A stretch of DNA of 62,465 bases from Candidatus Promineifilaceae bacterium (GCA_041745395.1 JBGTIZ010000183.1:1-62465), one strand, 5' to 3'. Counted from the stretch's first letter, positions 6,146-27,910 are shown. Numbers and translations are program-made. Notes: generated by a model from the letters alone, not told the origin.

Positions 6146-6370
6146 ATCGTCCTCGCAATGGTGACAGTTACTAGCCGTTCAGCTTTTAACTATTGAACAC
6201 GCCTCGCCGCCTGCGGCGGCTCGGCCATAAAGGGGTATTTTTTCAGTGAGTCGTGACCGCAGGTCACGACTCACCAGTCTGTAAAAGTGTAAACATAGTG
6301 AGGCTCAAACAATACTCGAATGACACGGATTTTGAGAAATTCGCGTCATTCGAGACATTTGGGAAATGGC

Positions 6371-7518: not shown

Positions 7519-7620
7519 GATTACCTCAGGGCATTCATGGGGTTTGAACTGGTTTTGGGAAAGGGTATTATTATCATGATACGCTCCACGGCCGTGGGGC
7601 ACATCAGCCGTTCAGCGGGT

Positions 7621-10600
7621 CTAGCTCTCCCCCACTTGGGGGATTCGCCCCACCACCACCTTATGCACCTGTCCATCATCCACCAGCGGAATAGAGGGAC
7701 TGGGTAACGGCACGCCATCCAAGCACACCCGCTGGAAATCCCCTGAGTTTTTCACCACAATGTGGTACGTCGCACGGCCGTGTCGATACCGCATCTCAAA
7801 CCCAGCCCAACTGGCAGGAATACACGGCTCTATCCGCAACGTCTCCCCCACCTTGCGCAAGCCCAAAATCCCCTCCACCCCCAGTCGCCACATCCAGCCC
7901 GCCGACCCCGTATACCACGTCCAGCCGCCCCGCCCCACATGCGGGGCTACCCCATACACATCGGCCGCCAGCACATATGGTTCTACTTTGTATTGGGCTA
8001 CCTCCACGGCCGTGTCCCCGTGGCTAATCGGGTTCAGCAGAGCAAACAAGCCGTGCGCCACATCCCCCTGCCCTAGCTCTGCAAACGCCCACGCCGTCCA
8101 CAGCGCGGCGTGGGTATACTGGCCGCCATTCTCCCGAATGCCCGGCAAATACCCCTTGATATAGCCGGGGTCGCGTGCTGTTTTATCAAACGGCGGCGTG
8201 AGCAATAGCACCAGCCGCTCCTGCTCTAGCACGAGGCGGTCATAGCTGGAAGCCATCGCCTGTTGCGCCCGTTGCGGGTCGGCCGCGCCCGAAAGCACCC
8301 CCCACGCTTGGGCCAGCCCATCAATCTGGCACTCCTGATTTTGGGCCGACCCCCACGCCACCCCCTCATCATCAAAAGCGCGGCGATACCCTTCCCCATC
8401 CCAGCCATGTTGCTCGATGGCCTTTTGGTAGGCCACCGCTTGCTGGCGATAGCCATCAGCACCGTCCGCTCCCACCCGCTCGCACAAATCCGCAAAATCG
8501 TTCAGCGTTTTGTAGAGGAACCAGCCCAGCCACACGCTTTCCCCGCGCCCTTCAATGCCTATCCGATTCATGCCGTCGTTCCAGTCGCCGCCGCCCATTA
8601 GCGGTAGGCCGTGTTGCCCCGTCGTAGACCCCTTCTGCAAGGCGCGGCGGCAATGCTCGAAGAGGCTATATTGTTCACTACCCGTCTCGTAGGCTCCATA
8701 CCGCTCTTCTTCCCCCTTAGCTAGCGGTGCGCCCAGCAAGAAGGGGATTTCCTCGGCCAAAATCGTCTCGTCCCCTGTGCTGACCACATAGGCGGCCGTC
8801 ACATAGGGCAACCACAGCAAATCGTCGCTGATGCGCGTGCGCACCCCGCGCCCCGAGGGGGGATGCCACCAGTGCAACACGTCGCCCGCGTCGAATTGGT
8901 GGTGGGCGGCGCGCAGAATGTGTGCCCGCGCCAAGTCGGGGCGGGTGTGGAACAGGGACAGCACATCTTGCAATTGGTCGCGGAAGCCATATGCCCCGCT
9001 AGACTGGTAGAGCGCGGAACGCCCCCATATCCGGCACGCCACGTTTTGGTACAACAGCCAGCGGTTGAGCATCACATTCATAGCGGGGTCGGGCGTGTTC
9101 ACCTTAACTGCTCCGAGCAGGTCATCCCACAGGGTTTGCACGTCGTTCCACACGGCCGTGCAACTCCCCTCCTGCTGGAACTCCTCAATCACCGCCAACG
9201 CTTCCTCTTGATTCGCGCCCTGCCCCAGTAGAAAATAAACTTCTTCACTGCCGCCCGGCGGCAAATCGAAATGCACTTGCAAAACGGCACAGCTATCCGT
9301 GCCCGCCGCCACCTGATTATTCAGGCCGATGCGCCCCAGCGCGGCCGGCTGGCGCAAATCTCCCAAGCGGCCGATAAACTCCGCCCTATCGGCCGTGAAA
9401 CTGTGCGGCTCTTTCGAGGCGGCCACAAAGGCCACCCGCTCCCCAAATTCCGTGTTGTACGGGTTACGCGCCAGCAGGGCATACTGCTCTCGCTCATAAC
9501 TGGGGATGAGATAGGGTTGGGTCGTGCCTCGGCTCGTGCCCAGCACCCATTCGGCATAGAGGGTGAGGGTGAGGGTGAGGCGACGCGGCCGTGTCGACTT
9601 ATTTTCCAAGCGCACCTGCATCATTTTGACGGGTGACTCGGGCGCGACAAACAGCCGCGTCTGCTGTTGCAGGCCGTGGCTGTGATGCTCAAAAATGGTG
9701 TAGCCTGCCCCGTGGCGCACCAAATAAGGCGCGTCAGCCGGGGCGGGTTGGGGGGTGGGCGACCAGATTTCGGCCGTTTCTTCATCGCGCAGGTAAAGCG
9801 CTTCGCTGGGAACGTCGCTGACAGGGTCGTTGCGCCATGATGTCAGCCGATTTTCGCCACTATTCACCGCCCACGTAAACCCGCCGCCCGTCTCGGAAAC
9901 GATAAAGCCCACTTCTTCGTTGGCAATCACATTGATCCACGGCGCGGGAGTGCTTTCTCTGGGCCGCAAGTAGATTTGGTACTCCTTGCCATCGGCGCTG
10001 AACCCGCCGAGGCCGTTGTCGAATTGCCAATCCGTCGGCCGTGGCAACCCGTCCTTCTGTCCCTCGTCCCTTTCGCCCCCGTCCCCTGTCGCCACAAAGG
10101 CGGGCAACGGCGTGGGCTGGGCTAAGAAATTGCCCAACTGCTCGCCAATCGTGCCCCCTGAGCCATCCAATACCACCCGCGCCGTCGTTTGGAGCAGGAT
10201 GCGGTCGGCCAGCCCCATTTGGTCTTCGCGCAAGACAAACAAGCCGCCCCGCCGATTGAGCCAGCTTTCGCTGTGGGTGCGGTGGATGAGGTGGTAGATG
10301 AACCCTTGCACCTCTTGGCCGTAATTTGATTCTTGCTGATTGAGAATGACCAAATCAATTTGCAAATCGCGCCGCCGCCAATAGGTGTGGGCGCGGAGCA
10401 GGTCTAGCAACAGTTCGCCATCTTCTTCGCGGTGCAATTTCACCAGCAAGATGGGGTAATCGCCCGAAATGCCAAAGGCCCACAGCCCTGTTTGCCCCTT
10501 TGTGTTGCTGGCTAAGATGTCTGCGTCGGCACGGCCGACGGGGTGCGGGTAGAGCAAGAGCGACAAAATTCGTTGGATTTGCTCCAGTTGCGGGGTGGAT

Positions 10601-17630: not shown

Positions 17631-17828
17631 TTAAAAATTGTTGTAAATTAGAGGTGAGCGTCCTGAAAAAAGTTTTGACGCAAAGCGGGGGGGGTACTTG
17701 ACCAATGTATTGGGATGATCTTTTTTACGCTTCTTCTCTTTTTTGTCCTGCTTCTTTTCCTTGGGGGTTTTAGCAGGCTTTGTTTTGTCGTCTTTCTTGT
17801 CTTTCTTGCTGTTTGGATCTTTGGACAT
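17631..17828 (-). CDS. Lys-rich small protein (65 aa), paralogous N-terminus to 17270..17578
   Basis: SD AGGAG upstream. MSKDPNSKKDKKDDKTKPAKTPKEKKQDKKEKKRKKD shares the M-[PS]-K-D-x-[DN]-S-K-K-D start with its neighbour. Confidence 0.55.
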   Translation of the reverse strand: MSKDPNSKKDKKDDKTKPAKTPKEKKQDKKEKKRKKDHPNTLVKYPPRFASKLFSGRSPLIYNNF

Positions 17829-17887
17829 GATGTTTCTCCTATGGTTTACATGGTCACTGTGGATGGGAAGTCATTAACCAAATACCG

Positions 17888-18208
17888 TTAGCGGCGGTCT
17901 TCTATCCGCCCAAAAGTGGTTTCGAGGGCATTCTTGACCTTGTCTGCCGCCCCATCGACGGCCTGCTCCCAAGTGGCGGCTTGTTCGCTGGCGATAGCCC
18001 GGGGCAGGCCCGCCAATGAAACTTCTAATAAGCAACGGATATCGTCATTGCCCCCTTTTTTGTTGCTGTTTTCATCGCTTAGGTGGACTTCTACCCAGGT
18101 GATTTTTTCGGTAAAGCGGTCAAGGGTTCCCCGCACGGCCGTTTCAATCTCAGCGATCATCGTGTCATTGCCTTCAATGTTTCCATCGGTGTTAACCTGA
18201 ATGTGCAT
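17888..18208 (-). CDS. hpf: Short HPF/RaiA-family ribosome-associated (hibernation) protein
   Basis: MHIQVNTDGNIEGNDTMIAEIETAVRGTLDRFTEKITWVEVHLSDENSNKKGGNDDIRCLLEVSLAG...AVDGAADKVKNALETTFGRIEDRR fits the stand-alone ~105-aa HPF/RaiA subfamily pattern (M.IQVN...RF...I..VEVHL.DEN..KGG.DD..C..E..L.G). Confidence 0.75.
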   Translation of the reverse strand: MHIQVNTDGNIEGNDTMIAEIETAVRGTLDRFTEKITWVEVHLSDENSNKKGGNDDIRCLLEVSLAGLPRAIASEQAATWEQAVDGAADKVKNALETTFGRIEDRR

Positions 18209-18370
18209 AGGGGTCTTCTCCTGTGGTAAACGTTCAGCTAGTCAGCATTTCAGCCAGCTAAACTGCGTACCAAACCTGATGTTTAAGTTCAATAACAGAC
18301 TGTTTGATGAGTTGCTTCCTGTTTTAAGCAACTTAGCCGCTCGAATATGGCTAAGTCGTGTCGAGAAAAA
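18209..18370 (-). promoter_or_regulatory. Conserved stress-gene leader/promoter module, copy 1 (upstream of hpf)
   Basis: Shares ordered blocks with 19613-19761 and 20481-20611. In mRNA sense these are TTTTCTCGACAC, TAAAACAGGAAGCAA, TCAAACA, ATCAGGTTTGGTACGCAGTTTAGC, then GCTGA pentamers every 8 nt (plus-strand TCAGC at 18234, 18242, 18250), then GAACGTTTA, the SD and ATG. Confidence 0.55.
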
Positions 18371-18442
18371 CGAGCAGAAGTGCTAATTGGCTAAGACGCC
18401 AAACGCTTGCCTTCTGTGATAATGGGTGCAAAAACTTAATAC

Positions 18443-19597
18443 TTAATAGCGGTAAATAGCCGCTACACCTGTCTGGGTCGGCATTTGTTCCGTGGAAACA
18501 ATCATCACTTCGCCGCCCATTTGGCGGGCTAACATGCCCAAGTCATTTAGCAGGTCATTTGCGGCGAGTTCGTCCAGTTCAATGTCGCCAGTGGCTGTAT
18601 CTAGTCTGCCGAGTATTTCTCGGTCGGCTTCGATGAGTAGGGTGGCGACACGTCCTGTTGCGGCCGCGACGGCCACCTCCGCCAGATTGTCTTGGCCGAG
18701 ATTTTTTGATTGCGCCTGGCCAAATGCTTCGGTCAAGGTGGCCAGTTTGGCCCGATAATGTGGCTCGACCACCTCCCATGCCCGCTGGCGTAGTTCATCG
18801 TCGGTTAGGGCATCGGGGTAAATATCAATGCCTTCAGCTATGAGGAAGGGGTTGCGGCTGACTTGCTGAAACATCTGCCGATGCTCGGGTAGGGTGGCTA
18901 AGATAAGCGGCAAGCCTGACGGCTGTGAATGGTGTTCTAAAACGTCACGGTCAACGGAGCGGAAGAACCGTTCGGCATCACTTTTTATATCCGCGTCTCG
19001 GCCACCGTGGCCGTGGTGCATGGCATTTTGTCCCCCACCCACACCCCCATATGAGGCTACAGTCAAGTGTGGTTCGGTTAGTTCACTTCCTAGAGCTTCG
19101 GTGATGGTCTCCGCTACGGCTGGGTTCAGTGCTATTTCGTCCAGCTTGTCCCGGTTGCCTTCGTAGAGCTTGATTTCGTGCCGACTGAGGCCGAGGATTT
19201 GGTAGCGGTCGCCTGATTGCAGGAGGCGTAGCAGGGGCGTGGTGTGAAATGTATCGGCCGCTACGGCCAACTCGGCCACAGGCCGTTGGAGTTTGTAAAC
19301 GCGAAATATGCCCTTGGCACTCAGTATGGCTAGCCCATCAAGCGTGTGATTCCAAAAGCTCTCGTCATCAGCCAAGTCGAGAAATGGCTCTAATAGTGGT
19401 TGAGTCTTTTCGTCTGGATAATTCTCTTCAAGAGACTCTTCAAGGAGTTTGACCAGATTGCCAAAACGGATCGGGTCTTGTTGGTTTTCGGGGTGGCGCC
19501 GATGCGTGGGCTGGTAGAGTGTGAGGCAGGGCGGTTCGTAGCGGCCTAACATAGCTAAGATCCCAGCGGGGGTGGTATGTTCAAGTGTGTGTATCAT
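18443..19597 (-). CDS. Bacterial archaeo-eukaryotic release-factor-like (baeRF) family protein
   Basis: The N-terminal signature LAMLGRYEPPCLTLYQPTHRRHPENQQDPIRFGNLVKLLEESL matches my recollection of baeRF proteins (..P.VS.Y.PTHR...E..Q..IR.KNLL). The exact subfamily is unverified. Start is placed at ATG 19597, preceded by AAGGAG; the track's 19612 ATG would sit inside that SD. Confidence 0.55.
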   Translation of the reverse strand: MIHTLEHTTPAGILAMLGRYEPPCLTLYQPTHRRHPENQQDPIRFGNLVKLLEESLEENYPDEKTQPLLEPFLDLADDESFWNHTLDGLAILSAKGIFRVYKLQRPVAELAVAADTFHTTPLLRLLQSGDRYQILGLSRHEIKLYEGNRDKLDEIALNPAVAETITEALGSELTEPHLTVASYGGVGGGQNAMHHGHGGRDADIKSDAERFFRSVDRDVLEHHSQPSGLPLILATLPEHRQMFQQVSRNPFLIAEGIDIYPDALTDDELRQRAWEVVEPHYRAKLATLTEAFGQAQSKNLGQDNLAEVAVAAATGRVATLLIEADREILGRLDTATGDIELDELAANDLLNDLGMLARQMGGEVMIVSTEQMPTQTGVAAIYRY

Positions 19598-19612
19598 GTC
19601 TTCTCCTTTCAT

Positions 19613-19761
19613 AAGCGTTCAGCTAGTCAGCATTTCAGCCAGTCAGCTAGCTAAACTGCGTACTAAACTTGATTTTTTGGCTTATTACGGATTGTTTGAC
19701 AATTTGCTTCCTGTTTTAGGCGACGCAGTCAGCCGTATATGACCAAATTGTGTCGAGAAAA
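19613..19761 (-). promoter_or_regulatory. Conserved stress-gene leader/promoter module, copy 2 (upstream of the baeRF-like gene)
   Basis: Same block order as copy 1. Four perfect plus-strand TCAGC pentamers at 19619, 19627, 19635 and 19643 (exact 8-nt period). CTAAACTGCGTACTAAACTTGAT and GTGTCGAGAAAA are conserved. Confidence 0.55.
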
Positions 19762-19865
19762 GGAAGCTGAGATGCTAAACGACTACATCCTTTCTATCTA
19801 TGATGTAGTAGTGAACCTAAATGAGTTGAGCCGCAGGAGGTTTCTCCTTGTGGATGTATGCTAAA

Positions 19866-20480
19866 TTATCCGCCAAGTGTTTGATCCTGCGTTTTGAACC
19901 AAGCGAGCGCTTGGTCAAAATGTTGTGGCTCAAAATCTGGCCAATATTTATCGACGATATAAAAATCCGCATAAACTGATTGCACGGGGAGAAAACCGCT
20001 CAAACGGCATGCGCCGCCCCACCGTACAATCAAATCTAGGCGCGAAACTTCATCTGAATACAGGCGGCCGTTTTTAAGACCATCCAGATCCCATTTCCAG
20101 CCATAGTTGACAAGTAGATTTACCTTCATCCCCTCGCCCCGGCGCTGGCGGAATTCTTTCAACGCCGTGGGGAATTGCAGCGACGTTTCATCGCCGACAA
20201 CCAGCAAAGCCGCCCCACGACGTATAATCTCGAGGGCAAAGGCCACGGTGGCCTCAATGAAGGCCTGTTTCTGGACTGAAGGCCGCTTGGTGTTATCTTG
20301 TGTGAAGCAAAAAATGGAAACTTCTTCAATCCCGTATTCTTTGCACTTCTCATAAAGTAGGAATCCAGGGTCGATGCCGTGAGCATAGCCAGATTCTTTG
20401 GACAGACCATGACCCACAGCCCAGCGGCGATTTCCATCGGGAATGAAACCCACGTGACTTGGGAATTTGTTATGTGTCAT
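19866..20480 (-). CDS. Short, divergent cis-prenyltransferase (UppS family)
   Basis: HVGFIPDGNRRWA (substrate-binding motif), SIFCFTQDN, and RWGGACRLSGFLPVQSVYADFYIVDKYWPDF (compare the canonical R.SNFLLWQ.AY.E..F...LWPDF). It is only 204 aa against about 250 for housekeeping UppS. Confidence 0.75.
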   Translation of the reverse strand: MTHNKFPSHVGFIPDGNRRWAVGHGLSKESGYAHGIDPGFLLYEKCKEYGIEEVSIFCFTQDNTKRPSVQKQAFIEATVAFALEIIRRGAALLVVGDETSLQFPTALKEFRQRRGEGMKVNLLVNYGWKWDLDGLKNGRLYSDEVSRLDLIVRWGGACRLSGFLPVQSVYADFYIVDKYWPDFEPQHFDQALAWFKTQDQTLGG

Positions 20481-20611
20481 TGCAAGCCTCTGATTTTTAG
20501 GTTTTTAGATAGAAAAAGATAAGCGTTCGGTTACTCCGCATTTCAGCCAGTCAGCTCGCTAAACTGCGTACCAAACTTGATTTTTTCGACTCAGGAACAG
20601 TTTGTTTGAGG
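20481..20611 (-). promoter_or_regulatory. Conserved stress-gene leader module, copy 3 (upstream of the uppS-like gene; shorter and more degenerate)
   Basis: CTAAACTGCGTACCAAACTTGAT is conserved. TCAGC occurs at 20543 and 20551, with two decayed units in register at 20527 and 20535. Confidence 0.45.
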
Positions 20612-20754
20612 ATTGGCTGTCCTGATCTACCTATTACCCACATCTTTTTCTCTCTGGAAAAATAGCCCTCACCCCGAGGGAGAGGGCTAGGGGTGAGGGC
20701 TTCATGCACCACAAAGGCAAACCTGTGGGTAATTCATAAAACATAGCTGTGCAG

Positions 20755-21420
20755 TTAGGTTCGGGGGCGTTGTTGTATGCTTTGCGCTGTACCACGGCCG
20801 TGAAACAAAAAGGTGAGTGCCAAGCCCGCCACAAAGCCACCGATATGAGCCATGTAGGCCACGCCGCCTGTATCGGCCGTATCCGCCATTGAGCCAAGGC
20901 CGCTAAAAAATTGGAGTACGAACCAGAGGCCAATGACCATGAGGGCGGGTACGTGCATGACCCGTCGCCCTTGCAACACGCGCACATTTTGCTTGGGGAA
21001 TAATAAAATGTAGCCGCCTAACACCCCTGCCACCGCACCCGATGCGCCCAAATTGGGGATGCTTGAGTCGGGGTTAAAGGCCAATTGGGCAAAGGTGGCG
21101 ACCACGCCGCAGACTAGATAGAAAATGAGAAACGGAATATGGCCAAAACGGTCTTCGACGTTGTCGCCAAAAATCCACAAGTAGAGCATGTTGCCGCCCA
21201 AGTGAAGCCAACCCGCGTGCATGAACATGGCCGTGAAGAGGGTTAGGGAATCGGCGATGGGGCTGGCCAAAAAACGGCTGGGTACGAAGGCCCATTTTTC
21301 GATAAACGCATTACCGCCGTTCATTTGGACGAAGAAAAAGAGGACATTTAGCGCAATCAGCGCATATGTCACGAAGGGCACGATACGACGGGTACTGTTG
21401 TCGTCACCAACGGGGAACAT
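20755..21420 (-). CDS. Rhomboid-family intramembrane serine protease
   Basis: HAGWLHLGGNMLYLWIFGDNVEDRFGH, the catalytic GASGAVAGVLGGY, and AHIGGFVAGLAL (the catalytic His helix). Confidence 0.85.
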   Translation of the reverse strand: MFPVGDDNSTRRIVPFVTYALIALNVLFFFVQMNGGNAFIEKWAFVPSRFLASPIADSLTLFTAMFMHAGWLHLGGNMLYLWIFGDNVEDRFGHIPFLIFYLVCGVVATFAQLAFNPDSSIPNLGASGAVAGVLGGYILLFPKQNVRVLQGRRVMHVPALMVIGLWFVLQFFSGLGSMADTADTGGVAYMAHIGGFVAGLALTFLFHGRGTAQSIQQRPRT

Positions 21421-21525
21421 GGACGTTCTCTCCTCTTCTTGTCAGATACGAATTTCACGAATGACACGCATTTTTGCCTATCAAATTGGTAAATTTTGTG
21501 TCTTTCGTCTCTACCTTTAATGCGT

Positions 21526-21813
21526 TTAGGCTGTTGCTTTTGCGCCTACCTGGAGTTCTTCTTTCGCTTCCCGCTCCATTTTGTCTAAACGGGTGTAGTA
21601 ATCGGGAAATTCATTGAGGTGGGCGAGAGCGATTTTGCCTGTCAGCAAGGGGTCGTTGTGGGTTACGTCGGTGGTAGGATCGCCACGGCCGTGTTCCAAC
21701 TCTACTTTTAAGCCCATGTGGAATTGCGTTACATCAAAGCGACTCCAATCAATGCCCAACTCGTCGCCAATGGCGCGGGCTTCATCGGCTGTAAAATAAG
21801 GTTTCGTTGACAT
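21526..21813 (-). CDS. DUF5661-like small protein
   Basis: GLKVELEHGRGDPTTDVTHNDPLLTGKIALAHLNEFPDYYTRLDKME resembles the DUF5661 core as I remember it. The family assignment is unverified. Confidence 0.5.
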   Translation of the reverse strand: MSTKPYFTADEARAIGDELGIDWSRFDVTQFHMGLKVELEHGRGDPTTDVTHNDPLLTGKIALAHLNEFPDYYTRLDKMEREAKEELQVGAKATA

Positions 21814-21871
21814 GTAAACCTCCTTGGTAATCAGTTGAGAGTTAAAAATTTAATTCGGTAATAAATACAGC

Positions 21872-21950
21872 GAGAAGTAAGAAGTAAAAAGTTGAGACTG
21901 TCTGGCAGTTAGCTCTTGAGCAGAACTCAAGACACTTCTCAACTTTTTAC
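21872..21950. repeat. Heptamer-array hairpin (RARAAGT family), probable terminator of the lmo0937-like gene
   Basis: GAGAAGT AAGAAGT AAAAAGT (21872-21892). The arm GTAAAAAGTTGAGA (21884-21897) pairs with TCTCAACTTTTTAC (21937-21950). An inner hairpin TCTTGAG/CTCAAGA is also present. Confidence 0.6.
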
Positions 21951-22003
21951 ATTTCACTCTGTTACCGAACTAATTTTTTAAAGTCCAAGTTATTGCCAAC
22001 CGC

Positions 22004-22162
22004 TTAGACTATGCCTAAGAGTTGCAACAGAACGAGGATAACCACAATGACGAGAATAATGTGAATCCAATTACCCGTGCGCGGGAAACTGGGGCTGATG
22101 TTGCCACCCAAAAAGCCGAGTAGCCACAGAATGATTAGAATAACGACGATTGTCCACAACAT
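22004..22162 (-). CDS. lmo0937-family small stress membrane protein (52 aa; below the ORF-track size cut-off)
   Basis: Manual translation gives MLWTIVVILIILWLLGFLGGNISPSFPRTGNWIHIILVIVVILVLLQLLGIV-stop. AAGGAAAAC lies upstream of the ATG. A near-identical paralogue is at 24955..25113. Confidence 0.7.
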   Translation of the reverse strand: MLWTIVVILIILWLLGFLGGNISPSFPRTGNWIHIILVIVVILVLLQLLGIV

Positions 22163-22224
22163 AATGTTTTCCTTGGGCGGTAGCCCTAAATTTTCGTTGC
22201 CAAGACCATAATTTATGTAGCTGT

Positions 22225-22253
22225 TCAGTATTTCAGCCAGTCAGCATTTCAGC
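22225..22253. repeat. 8-nt-period pentamer array (TCAGt, TCAGC, TCAGC, TCAGC) upstream of the lmo0937-like gene
   Basis: Units start at 22225, 22233, 22241 and 22249. A two-unit array in the opposite orientation (GCTGA at 22354 and 22362) lies 100 nt away and could pair with it. Confidence 0.7.
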
Positions 22254-22392
22254 TTCATTTTCATATAGCAAAGGTGGCCACATTTGCGTGACCAAACGGC
22301 GGGCAAAGCGGTTGTTAACCTAAAACAAGCGCGGTTAGCACGAAGTTTAGGTGGCTGACTCGCTGAACGCTTACAGATTTACTTCCGAGAGG

Positions 22393-22899
22393 CTAGGCAG
22401 TGGCCTTTTCATTCAAGCCTTCCGTCAACAAGCTACCCATCGCCAAATCATCCAGCTTCTGGTCGCTGTCGTATTCTTCGTCTAAGATACCTTGCAACTG
22501 GTCAGCCTCATCAGCAAAGCCCAAGGCTTTGGCATAAGTACGCAAACCCCCATAAGTGGCAATCTCATAGTGCTCCACTTTTTGAGCCGCTAAAATAAGT
22601 GCCGCATCTTTTGCTTGCGGATGGCCTTTCACATTGACAATTTCCAATGCTTCGTCTACCAGCCCTTCCATTGCTTTGCATTTTTTGGAGCCGGGGTTTT
22701 TGTCTAGCCCCTTCAGGATAGCTTGAACGGTGGTCATGTGATTTTCTGTCTGGTGCGAATGGTTTTGAAAGGCCTTCTTCAAATCAGCACTGGCGGCGGC
22801 TTCGGCCATTTTAGGCAAGATTTCCAGCAACTGTTTTTCAGCACTGTAGATATCTTTTAATTGGTCAACGTAGAAATTTTGAAGGGATTGGATAGTCAT
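22393..22899 (-). CDS. Ferritin-like YciE/YciF (DUF892) stress protein
   Basis: LQNFYVDQLKDIYSAEKQLLEILPKMAEAA...LKKAFQNHSHQTENH...AAQKVEHYEIATYGGLRTYA is the classic DUF892 pattern. Confidence 0.9.
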   Translation of the reverse strand: MTIQSLQNFYVDQLKDIYSAEKQLLEILPKMAEAAASADLKKAFQNHSHQTENHMTTVQAILKGLDKNPGSKKCKAMEGLVDEALEIVNVKGHPQAKDAALILAAQKVEHYEIATYGGLRTYAKALGFADEADQLQGILDEEYDSDQKLDDLAMGSLLTEGLNEKATA

Positions 22900-24483: not shown

Positions 24484-24785
24484 GCTGTATTCTCCTGATG
24501 AAAATTGGTAAAAAACTCATTCACTAGTACTGGACTTGTCAACCTTGGCTGTTTTCAGCCGTTCGCTATATTCCTCACCCCGACGGTCGTACTCTGTCTA
24601 GGCGCGTAAATATCATGTGAATATCATACTATTTTGGTACTGAGGTAACATCAGTCGTTCAGGGGGTATACTCCTCCCCCACTTGGGGGATATTTAACGG
24701 ATAAACTCGAGGTGACGGCTACGTGCCTGACGCAGTTTTTTCCATCAGCGTGAGTGCGCGGTAGGTGTTTGGAGGTAAACAAAAA

Positions 24786-26064: not shown

Positions 26065-26164
26065 ACTGATGTACAGGAGCTAAGTTCCTCAAAGGAACTT
26101 AGCTCCTAGGCAACCTAGGCCATGCGGTTGCGCAAATAAGACCAAGCTATCTGGCAAAAAAGAG

Positions 26165-26193
26165 GCTGAAATGCTGACGAGCTGAAGTGCTGA
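26165..26193. repeat. Four GCTGA pentamers at an exact 8-nt period, in the opposite orientation to the hpf and baeRF copies
   Basis: GCTGA at 26165, 26173, 26181 and 26189, in the spacer between the K+ channel stop and the next gene's start. Confidence 0.75.
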
Positions 26194-26197
26194 CCGC

Positions 26198-27910
26198 CTA
26201 TTTATCATGCCGACCCTTTGCCCCAAACTTGTGCAAAAATGCCTTTTCTGCTTCGGTCGTGCCAATGATGACTAACTCCGCATTAACGGGCAACGGCATA
26301 TCGGCGGGCGGGTTAATTTTTGACCCAGCGGCCGTGCGTAGGGCGACCACGTTACAGCCTGTTTCTTGGCGCACATTTGCCTCGGCCAGCGAACGCCCCA
26401 CCAGCGACTTGGGCACATGCACCTTAAACACGTCTACTCCTTCGGCCACCATGAGTACCGTACTGCGGTCGAGGATGCTGATAATGCTGTTGGCGCCCAT
26501 TGAAGCGTAAGATAGCACAAAATCTGCGCCGGCGCGGTGCAGGGTGGCGACGTTGCGCTCTAGCACGGCGCGGGTGATGATTTGAATGTCGGGGCGCAGG
26601 CGACGGCAATAAATGGTCAGGTAAATGTTGATGTCGTCGTCATGGGTGGTTATCACGGCCGTGCCTGTTTCTAAAATGCCCGCTTGCTCCAACACCTCCT
26701 TCTCGGCCGCATCCCCCAGAACATATTTGTGCGGGTCACGAATCCGCTCCTTATCTTTTTCCACAATGCGGTAATCGAGACCTCGTTGCGCCAAAGACAC
26801 GGCCGTGGCGCGACCCACGCGCCCCCCGCCAATAATAATCACCGGTACATCCCGTTCTGGCTCATGATACAAAAGCTCATTGTACTGCTTGAAACACCTC
26901 GGCGACCCCGCCAAAACCAGCACCGTGCCTTCATTTAATAACGTATCCGGCCCCGCGTTTTCATAATGACCCCGCTCCCACACCCCCAACACCGTTACGC
27001 CATACTTTTGGCGCAGGGCAACCTCCTTAATTGTCTTGCCCGCCAATGAATTATTGCCCACCGTTGCTTCTGCAATAATCAGGTCATCAATCTGTCCAAT
27101 TGGATGCGCCAGCGTCCCGCCGCCGCTAATGCGCCGCGCCAACGCTTGCCCCATCAAATGCCCCAACTGCAACACATGGTCACTCCCAGCCAGCTCTAAA
27201 ATATCGACCGACGCCGAGAAATTAGCCGTGGTCAAAACGGGCACGGTTTCCGAAATTTCCCGCACGGTAAAGGCCACGTTGGTATTGACCATGTCATTGG
27301 CGGTGCTGGCGACCAGCCGCGCGTTATTCACACGAATCCGCCGATAGGTTTCGGGGTCGTCTATGTCCCCCCACACCATTTTGTACCCGCTGTCGTGCAA
27401 ATCAAGCGTTTCGTTGAGGTCTGGATTGAGCAGAACATAGCTGTATTCATACCGTTTCAGCTTCTCGATGAGCGACTCTGTGACCGAATCAAGATGGGTC
27501 AAAATGATATGCCCTTCGGTGTTTGGCGGTAGCTCGCGGGGGGCACGGCCGGCCGCCTGGGCCTTCATCCACGGTGCGTAGAAAAATTCCATGAAGGTGA
27601 AGGGAAAGAGAACCAGCAAAAAGAGGATGCCGCTGAGCAGGACAACCGTTGAAAAAATACGGCCGATGTCGGATTGAAACGTAATATCTCCAAACCCTAG
27701 CGTAGACATGACGGTGAGCGTCCAGTAGAAGCCAGTTACCCAGCTATTGTTTTGCGTTTGCCCTTCGTAGGCCATGATGTAGTGGAAGATAACGCTGTAG
27801 ATTGTGACCAGCAGGGTGAGGGCCAAAATAAAGCGCAGGAGGCTGAGCAGGTTTACTCGCCCTGGCCCCTTGCGCATAAAGTAGTAGAGCAATGTGGGAA
27901 TTGATTTCAT
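26198..27910 (-). CDS. Potassium channel with two cytoplasmic RCK (TrkA-N/TrkA-C) domains
   Basis: Selectivity filter MSTLGFGDITF, followed by Rossmann motifs (IIIGGGRVGRATAVSL) and TrkA-C-like segments. Confidence 0.85.
   Translation of the reverse strand: MKSIPTLLYYFMRKGPGRVNLLSLLRFILALTLLVTIYSVIFHYIMAYEGQTQNNSWVTGFYWTLTVMSTLGFGDITFQSDIGRIFSTVVLLSGILFLLVLFPFTFMEFFYAPWMKAQAAGRAPRELPPNTEGHIILTHLDSVTESLIEKLKRYEYSYVLLNPDLNETLDLHDSGYKMVWGDIDDPETYRRIRVNNARLVASTANDMVNTNVAFTVREISETVPVLTTANFSASVDILELAGSDHVLQLGHLMGQALARRISGGGTLAHPIGQIDDLIIAEATVGNNSLAGKTIKEVALRQKYGVTVLGVWERGHYENAGPDTLLNEGTVLVLAGSPRCFKQYNELLYHEPERDVPVIIIGGGRVGRATAVSLAQRGLDYRIVEKDKERIRDPHKYVLGDAAEKEVLEQAGILETGTAVITTHDDDINIYLTIYCRRLRPDIQIITRAVLERNVATLHRAGADFVLSYASMGANSIISILDRSTVLMVAEGVDVFKVHVPKSLVGRSLAEANVRQETGCNVVALRTAAGSKINPPADMPLPVNAELVIIGTTEAEKAFLHKFGAKGRHDK

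What the first reader, a model, noticed from the sequence alone, without database searches (positions are those of the whole stretch)
18209..22366. Conserved leader with GCTGA pentamers at a strict 8-nt period upstream of separately transcribed stress genes
The hpf-like, baeRF-like and uppS-like genes each carry their own copy of a 130-160-nt upstream module (18209-18370, 19613-19761, 20481-20611).

In mRNA sense the shared blocks are TTTTCTCGACAC, TAAAACAGGAAGCAA, TCAAACA and ATCA(G/A)GTTT(G/A)GTACGCAGTTTAGC. These are followed by GCTGA repeated every 8 nt. On the plus strand the pentamer reads TCAGC at 18234/18242/18250; at 19619/19627/19635/19643; and at 20543/20551 plus two decayed units in register. 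The module ends with GAACG(C/T)TTA, the SD and ATG.

The same 8-nt-period array recurs upstream of the lmo0937-like gene (22225-22253). It recurs in the opposite orientation at 22354-22366 and 26165-26193, and as two-unit versions at 7604-7616 (YggT leader) and, decayed, at 24653-24665.

An 8-nt period is off the DNA helical repeat. It is more reminiscent of sites for an oligomeric RNA-binding regulator (the TRAP, HutP or CsrA concept), or of a self-propagating mini-repeat. I could not place a convincing -35/-10 pair, so the module may contain an alternative-sigma promoter.
Basis: seen in the sequence. Interest (0 to 1): 0.65.

Follow-up and report, generated by a model that had tools for sequence, protein, structure and literature searches.

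The report
Jumping-DNA copies mistaken for gene leaders
The shared "leader" in front of the three stress genes is a small non-coding transposable element (a MITE with IS66-type ends) present in over a hundred intergenic copies in this hot-spring bacterium, so it is ordinary mobile DNA; its one unusual feature is that its inverted-repeat arms are built of GCTGA words spaced every 8 bases.

Summary
GCTGA-N3-GCTGA occurs 576 times in the genome, against 5-72 for most other spacings.

The modules are not gene-specific leaders. They are copies of a ~194-bp dispersed element with 167 profile hits, 160 of them intergenic. Its ends are GTAAGCGTTCAGC...GCTGAACGCTTAC. The GCTGA array is the inner part of both inverted-repeat arms and points outward, so any gene starting next to either end sees "GCTGA x4, GAACGCTTAC, SD, ATG".

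- GTAAGCG termini and 8-bp target duplications are the IS66-family signature.
- An IS66-family insertion sequence with the same termini is in the genome, though disrupted.
- A 93-bp sister element with a perfect 8-bp duplication sits inside a 194-bp copy.
- Window copy 1 has a 7/8 duplication overlapping the hpf Shine-Dalgarno.
- Orientation relative to genes is unbiased, and downstream gene functions are unrelated.
- 54 hpf loci and 11 baeRF loci elsewhere lack the module.

Related genera carry the same arms around unrelated cores. Other genera carry a different octamer word.

Still open: why the arms are 8-nt phased, and why most 194-bp copies lack duplications.

Verdict: a new MITE family of a known kind; moderate to low interest.

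The parts
18226..18410 (-). MITE copy 1, full length (185 bp), directly upstream of hpf. The right arm (18226-18262) is intact with 3 GCTGA units, one 8-nt unit fewer than the consensus. The left arm (18372-18410) is decayed: GCAAGCGTTTGGCGTCTTAGCCAATTAGCACTTCTGCTCG.
   Evidence: nhmmer model positions 2-193, E 2.8e-51. 87% identical to the consensus. Alignment.
18218..18225 (.). Target-site duplication of copy 1: CTCCTGTG here and CTTCTGTG at 18411-18418 (7/8). In mRNA sense it reads CACAGGAG and overlaps the hpf Shine-Dalgarno.
   Evidence: Read; termini located.
19611..19786 (-). MITE copy 2 upstream of the baeRF-family gene. The right arm has 4 GCTGA units (19619-19647). The left arm is decayed. 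Flanks are CTCCTTTC / ATCCTTTC (6/8) and overlap the SD (GAAAGGAG).
   Evidence: nhmmer positions 17-193, E 1.1e-49. Flanks read. Logan word depth is 364 here against about 8 in the flanking genes.
20519..20640 (-). MITE copy 3, right half only (model positions ~78-193), 40 nt upstream of the UppS-like gene. The array is partly decayed (20535-20555).
   Evidence: nhmmer positions 95-193, E 1e-23. Alignments.
22217..22374 (+). MITE copy 4, a 158-bp subfamily member with both arms, between the DUF5670 (lmo0937-like) gene start and the DUF892 gene end. Arms: GTAGCTGTTCAGTATTTCAGCCAGTCAGCATTTCAGC ... GGCTGACTCGCTGAACGCTTAC.
   Evidence: nhmmer positions 2-178, E 5.3e-17. 80% identical to the consensus. 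Flanks match 5/8.
26116..26201 (-). MITE copy 5, left half only, with 4 GCTGA units at 26165-26193. Its degenerate terminus GACCGCCTAT contains the TAG stop codon (26198-26200, minus strand) of the TrkA-type channel gene.
   Evidence: nhmmer positions 2-86, E 3e-09. Sequence; ORF list.
17888..18208 (-). hpf-like gene (Ribosomal_S30AE), host gene next to copy 1.
   Evidence: Pfam PF02482, 6.7e-08.
18443..19612 (-). baeRF family 3 gene, host gene next to copy 2.
   Evidence: Pfam PF18845, 5.7e-48.
19866..20480 (-). UppS-like prenyltransferase gene, host gene next to copy 3.
   Evidence: Pfam PF01255, 1.2e-37.

Best explanation
**What it is.** Each 'leader' is a copy of a ~194-bp non-autonomous DNA transposon, a MITE.
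- Its outermost 12-13 bp (GTAAGCGTTCAGC / GCTGAACGCTTAC) are the terminal inverted repeat of a single-ORF IS66-family insertion sequence found in the same genome.

**How it most likely moves (inferred).**
- That transposase, supplied in trans, recognises both ends.
- It inserts the element at AT-rich 8-bp targets, which are duplicated on insertion.

**Why it looks like a leader.**
- The genome is 86% coding, so tolerated AT-rich targets lie between genes.
- Many lie at the Shine-Dalgarno region or beside stop codons.
- Copies therefore accumulate 14-60 nt upstream of start codons and within a few nt of stop codons.

**The GCTGA array.**
- It is the inner part of both arms, typically four units of GCTGAMNK on each side, pointing outward.
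- Either end therefore presents 'GCTGA x4, GAACGCTTAC' to a neighbouring gene start.
- The arrays change length by whole 8-nt units (shown).
- They are conserved across genera while the cores differ (shown).
- I infer that they help the element propagate, most likely as reiterated binding sites for the transposase.

**Effect on genes.** Any effect on hpf, baeRF or uppS expression would be a by-product of insertion into their 5' regions. None was tested.
For: **Copy number and location**
- 167 nhmmer hits with sharp common termini.
- About 200 left-type and 194 right-type termini at 2 or fewer mismatches.
- 160 of 167 hits are intergenic, in a genome that is 86% coding.
- Logan contigs break at the arms, and word depth there is 364 against about 8.

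**One set of termini, several unrelated cores**
- The same termini bound elements of 48, about 93 (two families), 157-178 and 191-201 bp.

**8-bp target duplications**
- 13 of the 14 copies 93-94 bp long match 7/8 or 8/8.
- So do 194-bp-class copies at C388, C447, C138, C43, C290 and C434.
- Window copy 1 matches 7/8.
- A 173-bp array-armed element in another genus has a perfect CAAAGTAA duplication.

**Paralogous empty site**
- Removing the 93-bp element plus one AAAAGGAA at C400:9832-9924 restores a gapless match to the 194-bp consensus.

**IS66 signature and a cognate IS**
- The IS66-family IR starts GTAAGCG and gives 8-bp direct repeats (PMC11946415).
- The IS in C37/C414 has a PF03050 transposase at 1.7e-29. 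Its stop codon lies inside ...CACCTGAACGCTTAC.
- A 636-bp deletion derivative shows both IRs: GTAAGCGTTCGGGGGGTATGC and GTAAGCGTTCAGGTGGTGTGC.
- An intact 1598-bp, one-ORF relative (59% identity) occurs in a related genome, and a second ~1.56-kb relative (56%, 377-aa open frame) in another; both are array-bearing genomes.

**No link to gene orientation or function**.

**Not conserved at orthologous loci**
- Absent from hpf and baeRF loci elsewhere.
- The core is absent from the same-genus genome.
- The orthologous gap at the C388 locus in that genome is short and empty.
Against: - Only about 7 of 34 paired 130-260-bp copies keep a 7/8 or better duplication. Several copies with perfect termini and unique flanks have none. 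Classical insertion is therefore not shown for most 194-bp copies.
- The only cognate transposase gene seen in this assembly is interrupted by another repeat. No intact partner is visible in this fragmented MAG.
- The IS ends themselves carry no GCTGA arrays, so the arrays are not needed for the IS.
- The two related IS copies examined show no clear duplication.
- No strain-level presence/absence polymorphism was found.
Confidence: 0.85

Rival explanations
1. **Host-maintained or recombination-spread repeat.** The octamer arrays would be a lineage-wide short-tandem-repeat phenomenon, like cyanobacterial STRR. The 194-bp unit would spread or be homogenised mainly by recombination or gene conversion between array-bearing intergenic sites. 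The IS66-like terminus would be incidental, or used only occasionally.
For: - Most 194-bp copies lack target duplications.
- The same-genus genome has 383 three-unit arrays but no core. They are often head-to-head hairpins or abut other 7-8-nt arrays, with no GTAAGCG terminus.
- The orthologous intergenic region of the C290 copy in that genome holds a different octamer-array hairpin.
- Other genera carry (TAGTCGRR)n octamer arrays and CCACTGT-type heptamer arrays with no IS66 ends.
- Arrays gain and lose whole units.
Against: - In this genome nearly every array of 3 or more units is followed by an intact or decayed GAACGCTTAC-type terminus.
- Clean 8-bp duplications exist for array-armed copies in two genera.
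- The termini equal the IRs of a resident IS66-family element.
Confidence: 0.1
2. **First reader's reading.** The module would be a transcribed regulatory leader. Its 8-nt-phased GCUGA motifs would be bound by an oligomeric RNA-binding protein (TRAP, HutP or CsrA concept), or it would hold an alternative-sigma promoter, co-regulating stress genes.
For: - In the window, three adjacent stress-related genes each have a copy in the same orientation, with the array 10-40 nt from the SD.
- TAACTGA heptamer repeats just upstream of start codons have been proposed as regulator sites in Beggiatoaceae (PMC4679880).
- The element folds into a long hairpin, -41 kcal/mol with z -6.1.
Against: - There is no orientation bias toward start codons (54:45 and 43:40). 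In the Beggiatoa case about 147 of 170 repeat sets point toward a start codon.
- Downstream genes have unrelated functions.
- The module is absent from orthologous leaders and from the same-genus genome.
- None of the arm pairs shows a compensatory change.
- No Rfam family matches.
- No sigma-70-like promoter lies inside the copies.
- Three same-orientation copies have a 1-in-4 chance probability.
Confidence: 0.03
3. **Gene-less remnants of octamer-armed hairpin cassettes.** Earlier unchecked notes of this scan describe such cassettes in many phyla, with a small GxxExxY (PF13366) nuclease as their own enzyme.
For: The architecture is similar: inverted arrays of 8-nt words flanking a short core (earlier notes). 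Head-to-head arrays occur in the same-genus genome.
Against: No PF13366 match anywhere in this 97%-complete genome. The termini and duplications fit IS66 instead.
Confidence: 0.02

Closest known systems
MITEs derived from IS66-family insertion sequences (single-ORF group of the family)
   Same: - Small (about 93-200 bp), non-coding, high copy number and intergenic.
- Terminal inverted repeats begin GTAAGCG, and 8-bp target-site duplications occur.
- A resident IS with a DDE_Tnp_IS66 transposase has the same termini.
- Several unrelated cores share one set of ends.
   Different: - The arms are extended to about 45 bp by four phased GCTGAMNK octamers that the parent IS does not have.
- Most 194-bp copies lack duplications.
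- The cognate transposase copy seen here is disrupted.
I found no description of such elements there.
STRR (short tandemly repeated repetitive) heptamers of filamentous cyanobacteria, and the TAACTGA heptamer repeats of Beggiatoaceae, Cyanobacteria and Bacteroidetes (PMC4679880)
   Same: - Short 7-8-nt words in tandem arrays of 2-6 units, occasionally about 20 or more.
- Almost exclusively intergenic and close to gene boundaries.
- Patchy, lineage-specific distribution, with different words in different genera.
- Indels occur in whole units.
- A shared CTGA core (GCTGACTA against TAACTGA).
   Different: - The period is 8, not 7.
- In this genome the arrays are the arms of a transposon with defined termini, not free-standing.
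- There is no bias toward start codons, unlike the Beggiatoa repeats.
REP / BIME / REPIN elements with RAYT transposases
   Same: Abundant intergenic repeats that occur as inverted pairs able to form hairpins. One variant terminus begins GTAG.
   Different: - Individual arms are not palindromes, because all pentamers in an arm point the same way.
- The elements have 8-bp duplications and IS66-type IRs.
- No RAYT association was looked for or seen.
Transposons with multiple subterminal transposase-binding repeats (Tn7, Mu, IS21; my own knowledge, not tested here)
   Same: Reiterated short motifs inside each end, in the same orientation relative to the tip.
   Different: Those sites are about 20 bp long and irregularly spaced. 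Here the word is 5 bp at a strict 8-bp step. Binding has not been shown.

Membership tests
MITE (miniature inverted-repeat transposable element) | Small (<~300 bp) and non-coding | tested here: met
   The consensus is 194 bp. Sister families are 48-201 bp. No ORF lies inside.
MITE (miniature inverted-repeat transposable element) | Terminal inverted repeats | tested here: met
   GTAAGCGTTCAGC...GCTGAACGCTTAC, with boundaries shared by all copies.
MITE (miniature inverted-repeat transposable element) | Target-site duplication of fixed length | tested here: inconclusive
   An 8-bp duplication is present in 13 of the 14 copies 93-94 bp long. It is present in only about 7 of 34 paired 130-260-bp copies. 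Window copy 1 matches 7/8 and copy 2 matches 6/8.
MITE (miniature inverted-repeat transposable element) | High copy number with family-level sequence identity | tested here: met
   167 nhmmer hits. About 400 termini. Full-length copies are 85-94% identical to the consensus.
MITE (miniature inverted-repeat transposable element) | Autonomous element with the same termini | tested here: met
   The IS in C37/C414 and its deletion derivative in C116 have these termini, and so does one related genome's intact IS plus a second, ~1.56-kb relative whose open frame is shorter. The copy in this assembly is interrupted.
MITE (miniature inverted-repeat transposable element) | Evidence of mobility (filled versus empty sites) | tested here: met
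   A gapless paralogous empty site exists for the 93-bp sister element nested in a 194-bp copy. For the 194-bp family itself the evidence is indirect: absence from the same-genus genome and an empty orthologous gap.
IS66 family | DDE_Tnp_IS66 transposase | tested here: met
   PF03050 at 1.7e-29 for the C414 ORF. The N-terminal LEEQLGKNSRNSSKLPSSD segment is in the C116 derivative.
IS66 family | IR of about 20-30 bp starting GTAAGCG | tested here: met
   IRL GTAAGCGTTCGGGGGGTATGC and IRR GTAAGCGTTCAGGTGGTGTGC. The literature statement is in PMC11946415.
IS66 family | 8-bp direct target repeats | tested here: met
   Seen for the MITEs. Also seen for the second resident IS66-family IS, with GAATAATG. 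Not evident for the two related full-length IS copies.
IS66 family | Accessory tnpA/tnpB ORFs of canonical IS66 | tested here: not met
   The 1598-bp relative has a single 484-aa ORF. It therefore falls in the single-ORF group of the family, not canonical three-ORF IS66.
Leader with phased sites for an RNA-binding regulator (TRAP / HutP / CsrA concept; TAACTGA-type repeats) | Motif lies in sense orientation upstream of start codons of a defined gene set | tested here: not met
   Arrays point toward starts versus stops 54:45 and 43:40. Downstream functions are unrelated.
Leader with phased sites for an RNA-binding regulator (TRAP / HutP / CsrA concept; TAACTGA-type repeats) | Conservation in orthologous leaders | tested here: not met
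   0 of 54 hpf loci and 0 of 11 baeRF loci carry it.
Leader with phased sites for an RNA-binding regulator (TRAP / HutP / CsrA concept; TAACTGA-type repeats) | Array is transcribed as part of the 5' UTR | not testable with these tools
   No usable RNA run holds this organism.
STRR-like short tandem repeats | Tandem 7-8-nt units, intergenic, lineage-specific word, unit-wise length variation | tested here: met
   In this genome, however, the arrays are parts of a transposon's arms.
GxxExxY (PF13366) octamer-armed cassettes (earlier scan notes, unpublished) | A PF13366 nuclease gene bracketed by the arms somewhere in the genome | tested here: not met
   No PF13366 match in the genome.

The most novel reading that the evidence does not exclude
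The 8-nt phase is functional and not accidental.
- Octamer arrays form a lineage-wide, protein-read DNA code: GCTGAMNK in some genera of this family and TAGTCGRR in others.
- Alternatively, the arrays could be a by-product of that enzyme's 8-bp staggered cut.
- Either version would explain why termini plus arrays are conserved across genera while cores are swapped. It would also explain why 8-nt-periodic arms recur with IS66-type ends elsewhere.
Probability: 0.15. Interest if true: 0.6.

Novelty: new member of a known kind. Interest (0 to 1): 0.3.

Why it matters
- **Annotation.** It removes a false lead: there is no stress-gene riboregulator here. It also shows how a symmetric MITE with outward-facing arms can mimic a conserved 5' leader.
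- **Assembly.** These elements, together with a second ~225-bp repeat, explain why this MAG is broken into 524 contigs.
- **Gene expression.** Insertions sit on or next to ribosome-binding sites and stop codons, so they may alter expression of the neighbouring genes.
- **Transposon biology.** The array-built arms are conserved across genera around unrelated cores. This offers a tractable question for IS66-family transposition, which is poorly understood mechanistically: do reiterated 5-bp words at an 8-bp step recruit the transposase?

Tried and rejected
- **Rfam.** A scan of the whole window gave no hit at gathering thresholds.
- **RNA evidence.** The only strong holder is the DNA sample the MAG came from, a hot-springs metagenome. 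The RNA runs hold 6% of words, which is uninformative.
- **Strain-level empty alleles.** Laying Logan contigs found none. Contigs simply break at the arms.
- **Empty sites in the same-genus genome.** A joined-flank DNA query found only 3 of 8 loci alignable, at 73-79% identity. One locus shows a short empty gap and one shows a different octamer hairpin. No base-level empty site was obtained.
- **Orthologous leaders.** The baeRF gene has no orthologue in the array-bearing relatives. The hpf homologues found in metagenomes are 61% identical or less.
- **Flank swapping by recombination.** No 8/8 cross-matches were found between left and right flanks of different copies. The test is weak because many ends lie at contig breaks.
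- **Adjacent repeats.** Abutting repeats explain some duplication-less copies (C122, C275, C276, C238, C195, C335) but not others (C106, C448, C163, C331, C362).
- **Cargo between distant terminus pairs.** ORFs lying between termini 0.6-3 kb apart look like ordinary host genes by eye. These are neighbouring independent copies.
- **GxxExxY nuclease lead from earlier notes.** No PF13366 match in the genome.
- **Promoter scan.** No sigma-70-like site lies in any copy.
- **Organism name.** Two identity look-ups returned only anonymous Logan contigs. 'Chloroflexota' rests on an earlier unchecked note.

Full report
**1.

Reading 17800-22600 and aligning the reverse complements of the three upstream regions confirms the shared blocks and the GCTGA pentamers at a strict 8-nt step.
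- Exact positions are listed.
- GCTGA-N3-GCTGA occurs 576 times on both strands of the genome (5.43 Mb, 54.5% GC, 524 contigs; the window is contig C183). Spacings 0-2 and 4-10 give 5-72. A second peak of 338 at spacing 11 is the two-unit step.
- Three-unit arrays occur 286 times, against 0-1 for the reversed control word.

**2. What the module is**

- blastn of the three regions against the genome gave 67-116 hits each, with sharp common edges.
- Aligning 24 long copies shows a ~194-bp element with invariant boundaries: GTAAGCGTTCAGC GTCTCAGC CAGTCAGC ACTTCAGC TTG...core...GTTTAGC TAGCTGAC TGGCTGAA ATGCTGAC TAGCTGAACGCTTAC.
- The 8-nt array is therefore the inner part of both terminal inverted repeats, pointing outward on each side.
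In copies 1 and 2 the distal arm is decayed but recognisable (18372-18410 and 19762-19786).
- A profile search finds 167 hits, 160 of them outside predicted ORFs in a genome that is 86% coding.
- The window holds five copies: 18226-18410, 19611-19786, 20519-~20640 (right half), 22217-22374 (158-bp subfamily) and 26116-26201 (left half). They are 69-89% identical to the consensus.
- Logan contigs of the source sample break at the arms. Word depth there rises from about 8 to 364.

**3. It carries the marks of IS66-type transposition**

- Termini matching GTAAGCGTTCAG with 2 or fewer mismatches occur about 200 and 194 times in the two orientations.
- They bound several element families with unrelated interiors: 48 bp, two ~93-bp families, 157-178 bp and 191-201 bp.
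- Of the 14 copies 93-94 bp long, 13 are flanked by an 8-bp direct repeat matching 7/8 or 8/8.
- Copies of the 194-bp class at C388, C447, C138, C43, C290 and C434 have the repeat too.
- Window copy 1 is flanked by CTCCTGTG/CTTCTGTG, which in mRNA sense is CACAGGAG, part of the hpf Shine-Dalgarno. Copy 2 is flanked by CTCCTTTC/ATCCTTTC.
- The duplicated targets are AT-rich.
- A 93-bp element with the duplication AAAAGGAA lies inside a 194-bp copy at C400. Removing it and one repeat restores a gapless alignment to the 194-bp consensus, a paralogous empty site.
- The literature states that IS66-family IRs are 20-30 bp, start GTAAGCG, and give 8-bp direct repeats (PMC11946415; an example IR is).

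**4. A cognate insertion sequence is present**

- PF03050 (DDE_Tnp_IS66) matches three places in the genome.
- The ORF on C414 (1.7e-29) ends with its TGA inside ...CACCTGAACGCTTAC.
- Its 5' part lies at the end of C37, behind the IR GTAAGCGTTCAGAGGGTATGC. The gene is split by an unrelated high-copy repeat.
- A 636-bp internal-deletion derivative on C116 shows both IRs and the fused N- and C-terminal coding remnants.
- A 1598-bp relative with a single intact 484-aa ORF (59% identity) occurs in one related genome, and a second ~1.56-kb relative (56%, 377-aa open frame) in another. Both have ends GTAAC/GCGTTCAG, and both genomes also carry GCTGA arrays.
- The element therefore belongs to the single-ORF group of the family, not canonical three-ORF IS66.
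- A second, intact IS66-family IS in this genome has a different IR (GTAACTACTAACCCTCTC) and an 8-bp duplication.

**5. It is not a gene-specific leader**

- The core's right end faces a gene start 37 times and a gene end 31 times. The left end does so 49 and 53 times.
- Of 203 arrays with 3 or more units, 107 are directly followed by a GAACGCTTAC-type terminus. Most of the rest are followed by decayed or variant termini and preceded by the element's inner junctions.
- Arrays point toward starts versus stops 54:45 and 43:40.
- Ten randomly chosen downstream genes encode a D-serine-dehydratase-like enzyme, a solute-binding protein, a TPR protein, an ABC-2/SpoIIM membrane protein, a sugar dehydrogenase, a DivIC-like protein, a PhoD phosphatase and unknowns.
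- None of 54 hpf-homologue loci and none of 11 baeRF loci from other organisms carries the module or any array.
- No Rfam family matches. No sigma-70-like promoter lies inside the copies.
- The predicted arm pairing shows no compensatory change.
- The DNA or RNA can fold back, with -41 kcal/mol and z -6.1. That is expected of any element with long inverted repeats.

**6. The arrays beyond this genome**

- In relatives, only the arm and terminus (consensus positions ~155-194) is found, never the core.
- Two other genera have elements of about 173 bp with the same termini and arrays but unrelated cores. One has a perfect 8-bp duplication, CAAAGTAA.
- Across 81 genomes of the family, GCTGA arrays number in the tens to hundreds in about seven genera and are absent or rare in most others.
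- The reversed control word revealed that other genera carry hundreds of (TAGTCGRR)n octamer arrays instead. Some adjoin CCACTGT-type heptamer arrays or form hairpins after stop codons.
- In the same-genus genome the GCTGA arrays occur as head-to-head hairpins, or next to other 7-8-nt arrays. They end in GCTAC/GCTAA-like tips and not GTAAGCG.
- Array length differs between copies by whole 8-nt units. One locus has about 20 units.
- These Chloroflexota (phylum from an earlier unchecked note; sample is a hot-springs metagenome) thus have an STRR-like landscape of short-period repeats.
- In this genome the GCTGA type is embodied in the arms of a MITE.
- That arms and termini are kept while cores differ suggests the arrays matter for propagation. 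This is an inference, not a result.

**7. What remains unexplained**

- Only about 7 of 34 paired 130-260-bp copies keep a duplication.
- Some abut other repeats, but several with unique flanks have none.
- Ectopic recombination between the many near-identical copies, or gene conversion onto older array sites, could account for this. Neither is shown.
- The reason for the 8-nt phase is open. It equals the family's target-duplication length, and that may or may not be a coincidence.

**8. Comparison with known systems, and verdict**

- The closest known kind is a bacterial MITE with IS66-family ends.
- The arrays resemble cyanobacterial STRR and the TAACTGA repeats of Beggiatoaceae (PMC4679880). 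They lack the latter's orientation toward start codons.
- The GxxExxY-cassette idea from earlier scan notes fails here, because the genome has no PF13366 gene.
The regulatory reading is not supported, and the 'self-propagating repeat' alternative is.
- It is a new MITE family of a known kind with unusually structured arms. Interest is moderate to low.

Noticed in passing
genome contigs C37:30430-30581, C414:1-96, C486:15895-16119, C273:1529-1753, C205:5981-6360 (only a weak partial match in the window at 6198-6242): A different ~225-bp MITE-like repeat has TIR TGTAGTGGTCAC...GTGACCAATACA and a central palindrome. It has 60 left and 97 right ends at 97-99% identity, mostly within 100 nt of contig ends. 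It is probably the main cause of the 524-contig fragmentation. Three of five resolvable copies are flanked by 15-16-bp direct repeats, an unusual length. One copy interrupts the IS66-family transposase gene.
   Followed up: partly
window 7600-7650 and 24648-24700: A separate conserved motif, ATCAGYCGTTCAGSGGGT.TA..CCCCCACTTGGGGGAT, has 5 copies in the genome (also on C240, C347 and C443). The copies on C240, C347 and C443 share an upstream TAGTACG.TAGTCACA block; the two window copies lack it. Its function is unknown, and there is no Rfam hit.
   Followed up: partly
window ~21850-21985: Another foldback built of short-period words (GAGAAGTAAGAAGTAAAAAGTTGAGA ... TCTCAACTTTTTACATTTCACTC) lies between the DUF5661 and DUF5670 genes. 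One Logan contig of the source sample skips 21863-21962 (98 bp), a possible length variant. Similar GTGAAAG/GTGAGAA hairpin arrays occur in the same-genus genome (locus L094).
   Followed up: no
genome contigs C95:15501-17070 joined to C347:1-140: A second IS66-family insertion sequence has an intact 491-aa transposase, an 18-bp perfect IR GTAACTACTAACCCTCTC and an 8-bp duplication GAATAATG. Contig ends suggest at least four copies.
   Followed up: partly
related genomes G010 (L028) and G056 (L029): Other genera of the family carry hundreds of (TAGTCGRR)n octamer arrays, 321 three-unit matches in one genome. Some sit beside CCACTGT-type heptamer arrays or form hairpins right after stop codons. 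They have no IS66-type termini. This is an STRR-like repeat landscape that I did not find described for this phylum.
   Followed up: partly
window 26198-26201: The TAG stop codon of the TrkA-type channel gene (26198-27910, minus strand) lies inside the degenerate terminus of the half MITE copy. Genome-wide, many termini overlap or abut stop codons, with distances of -3 to +10 nt.
   Followed up: no
window-wide, e.g. 18132, 19008, 20793, 21684: The decamer palindrome CACGGCCGTG is very frequent in this genome and its relatives. It also occurs next to or inside repeat-bearing intergenic regions. Another first-stage note has already flagged it.
   Followed up: no
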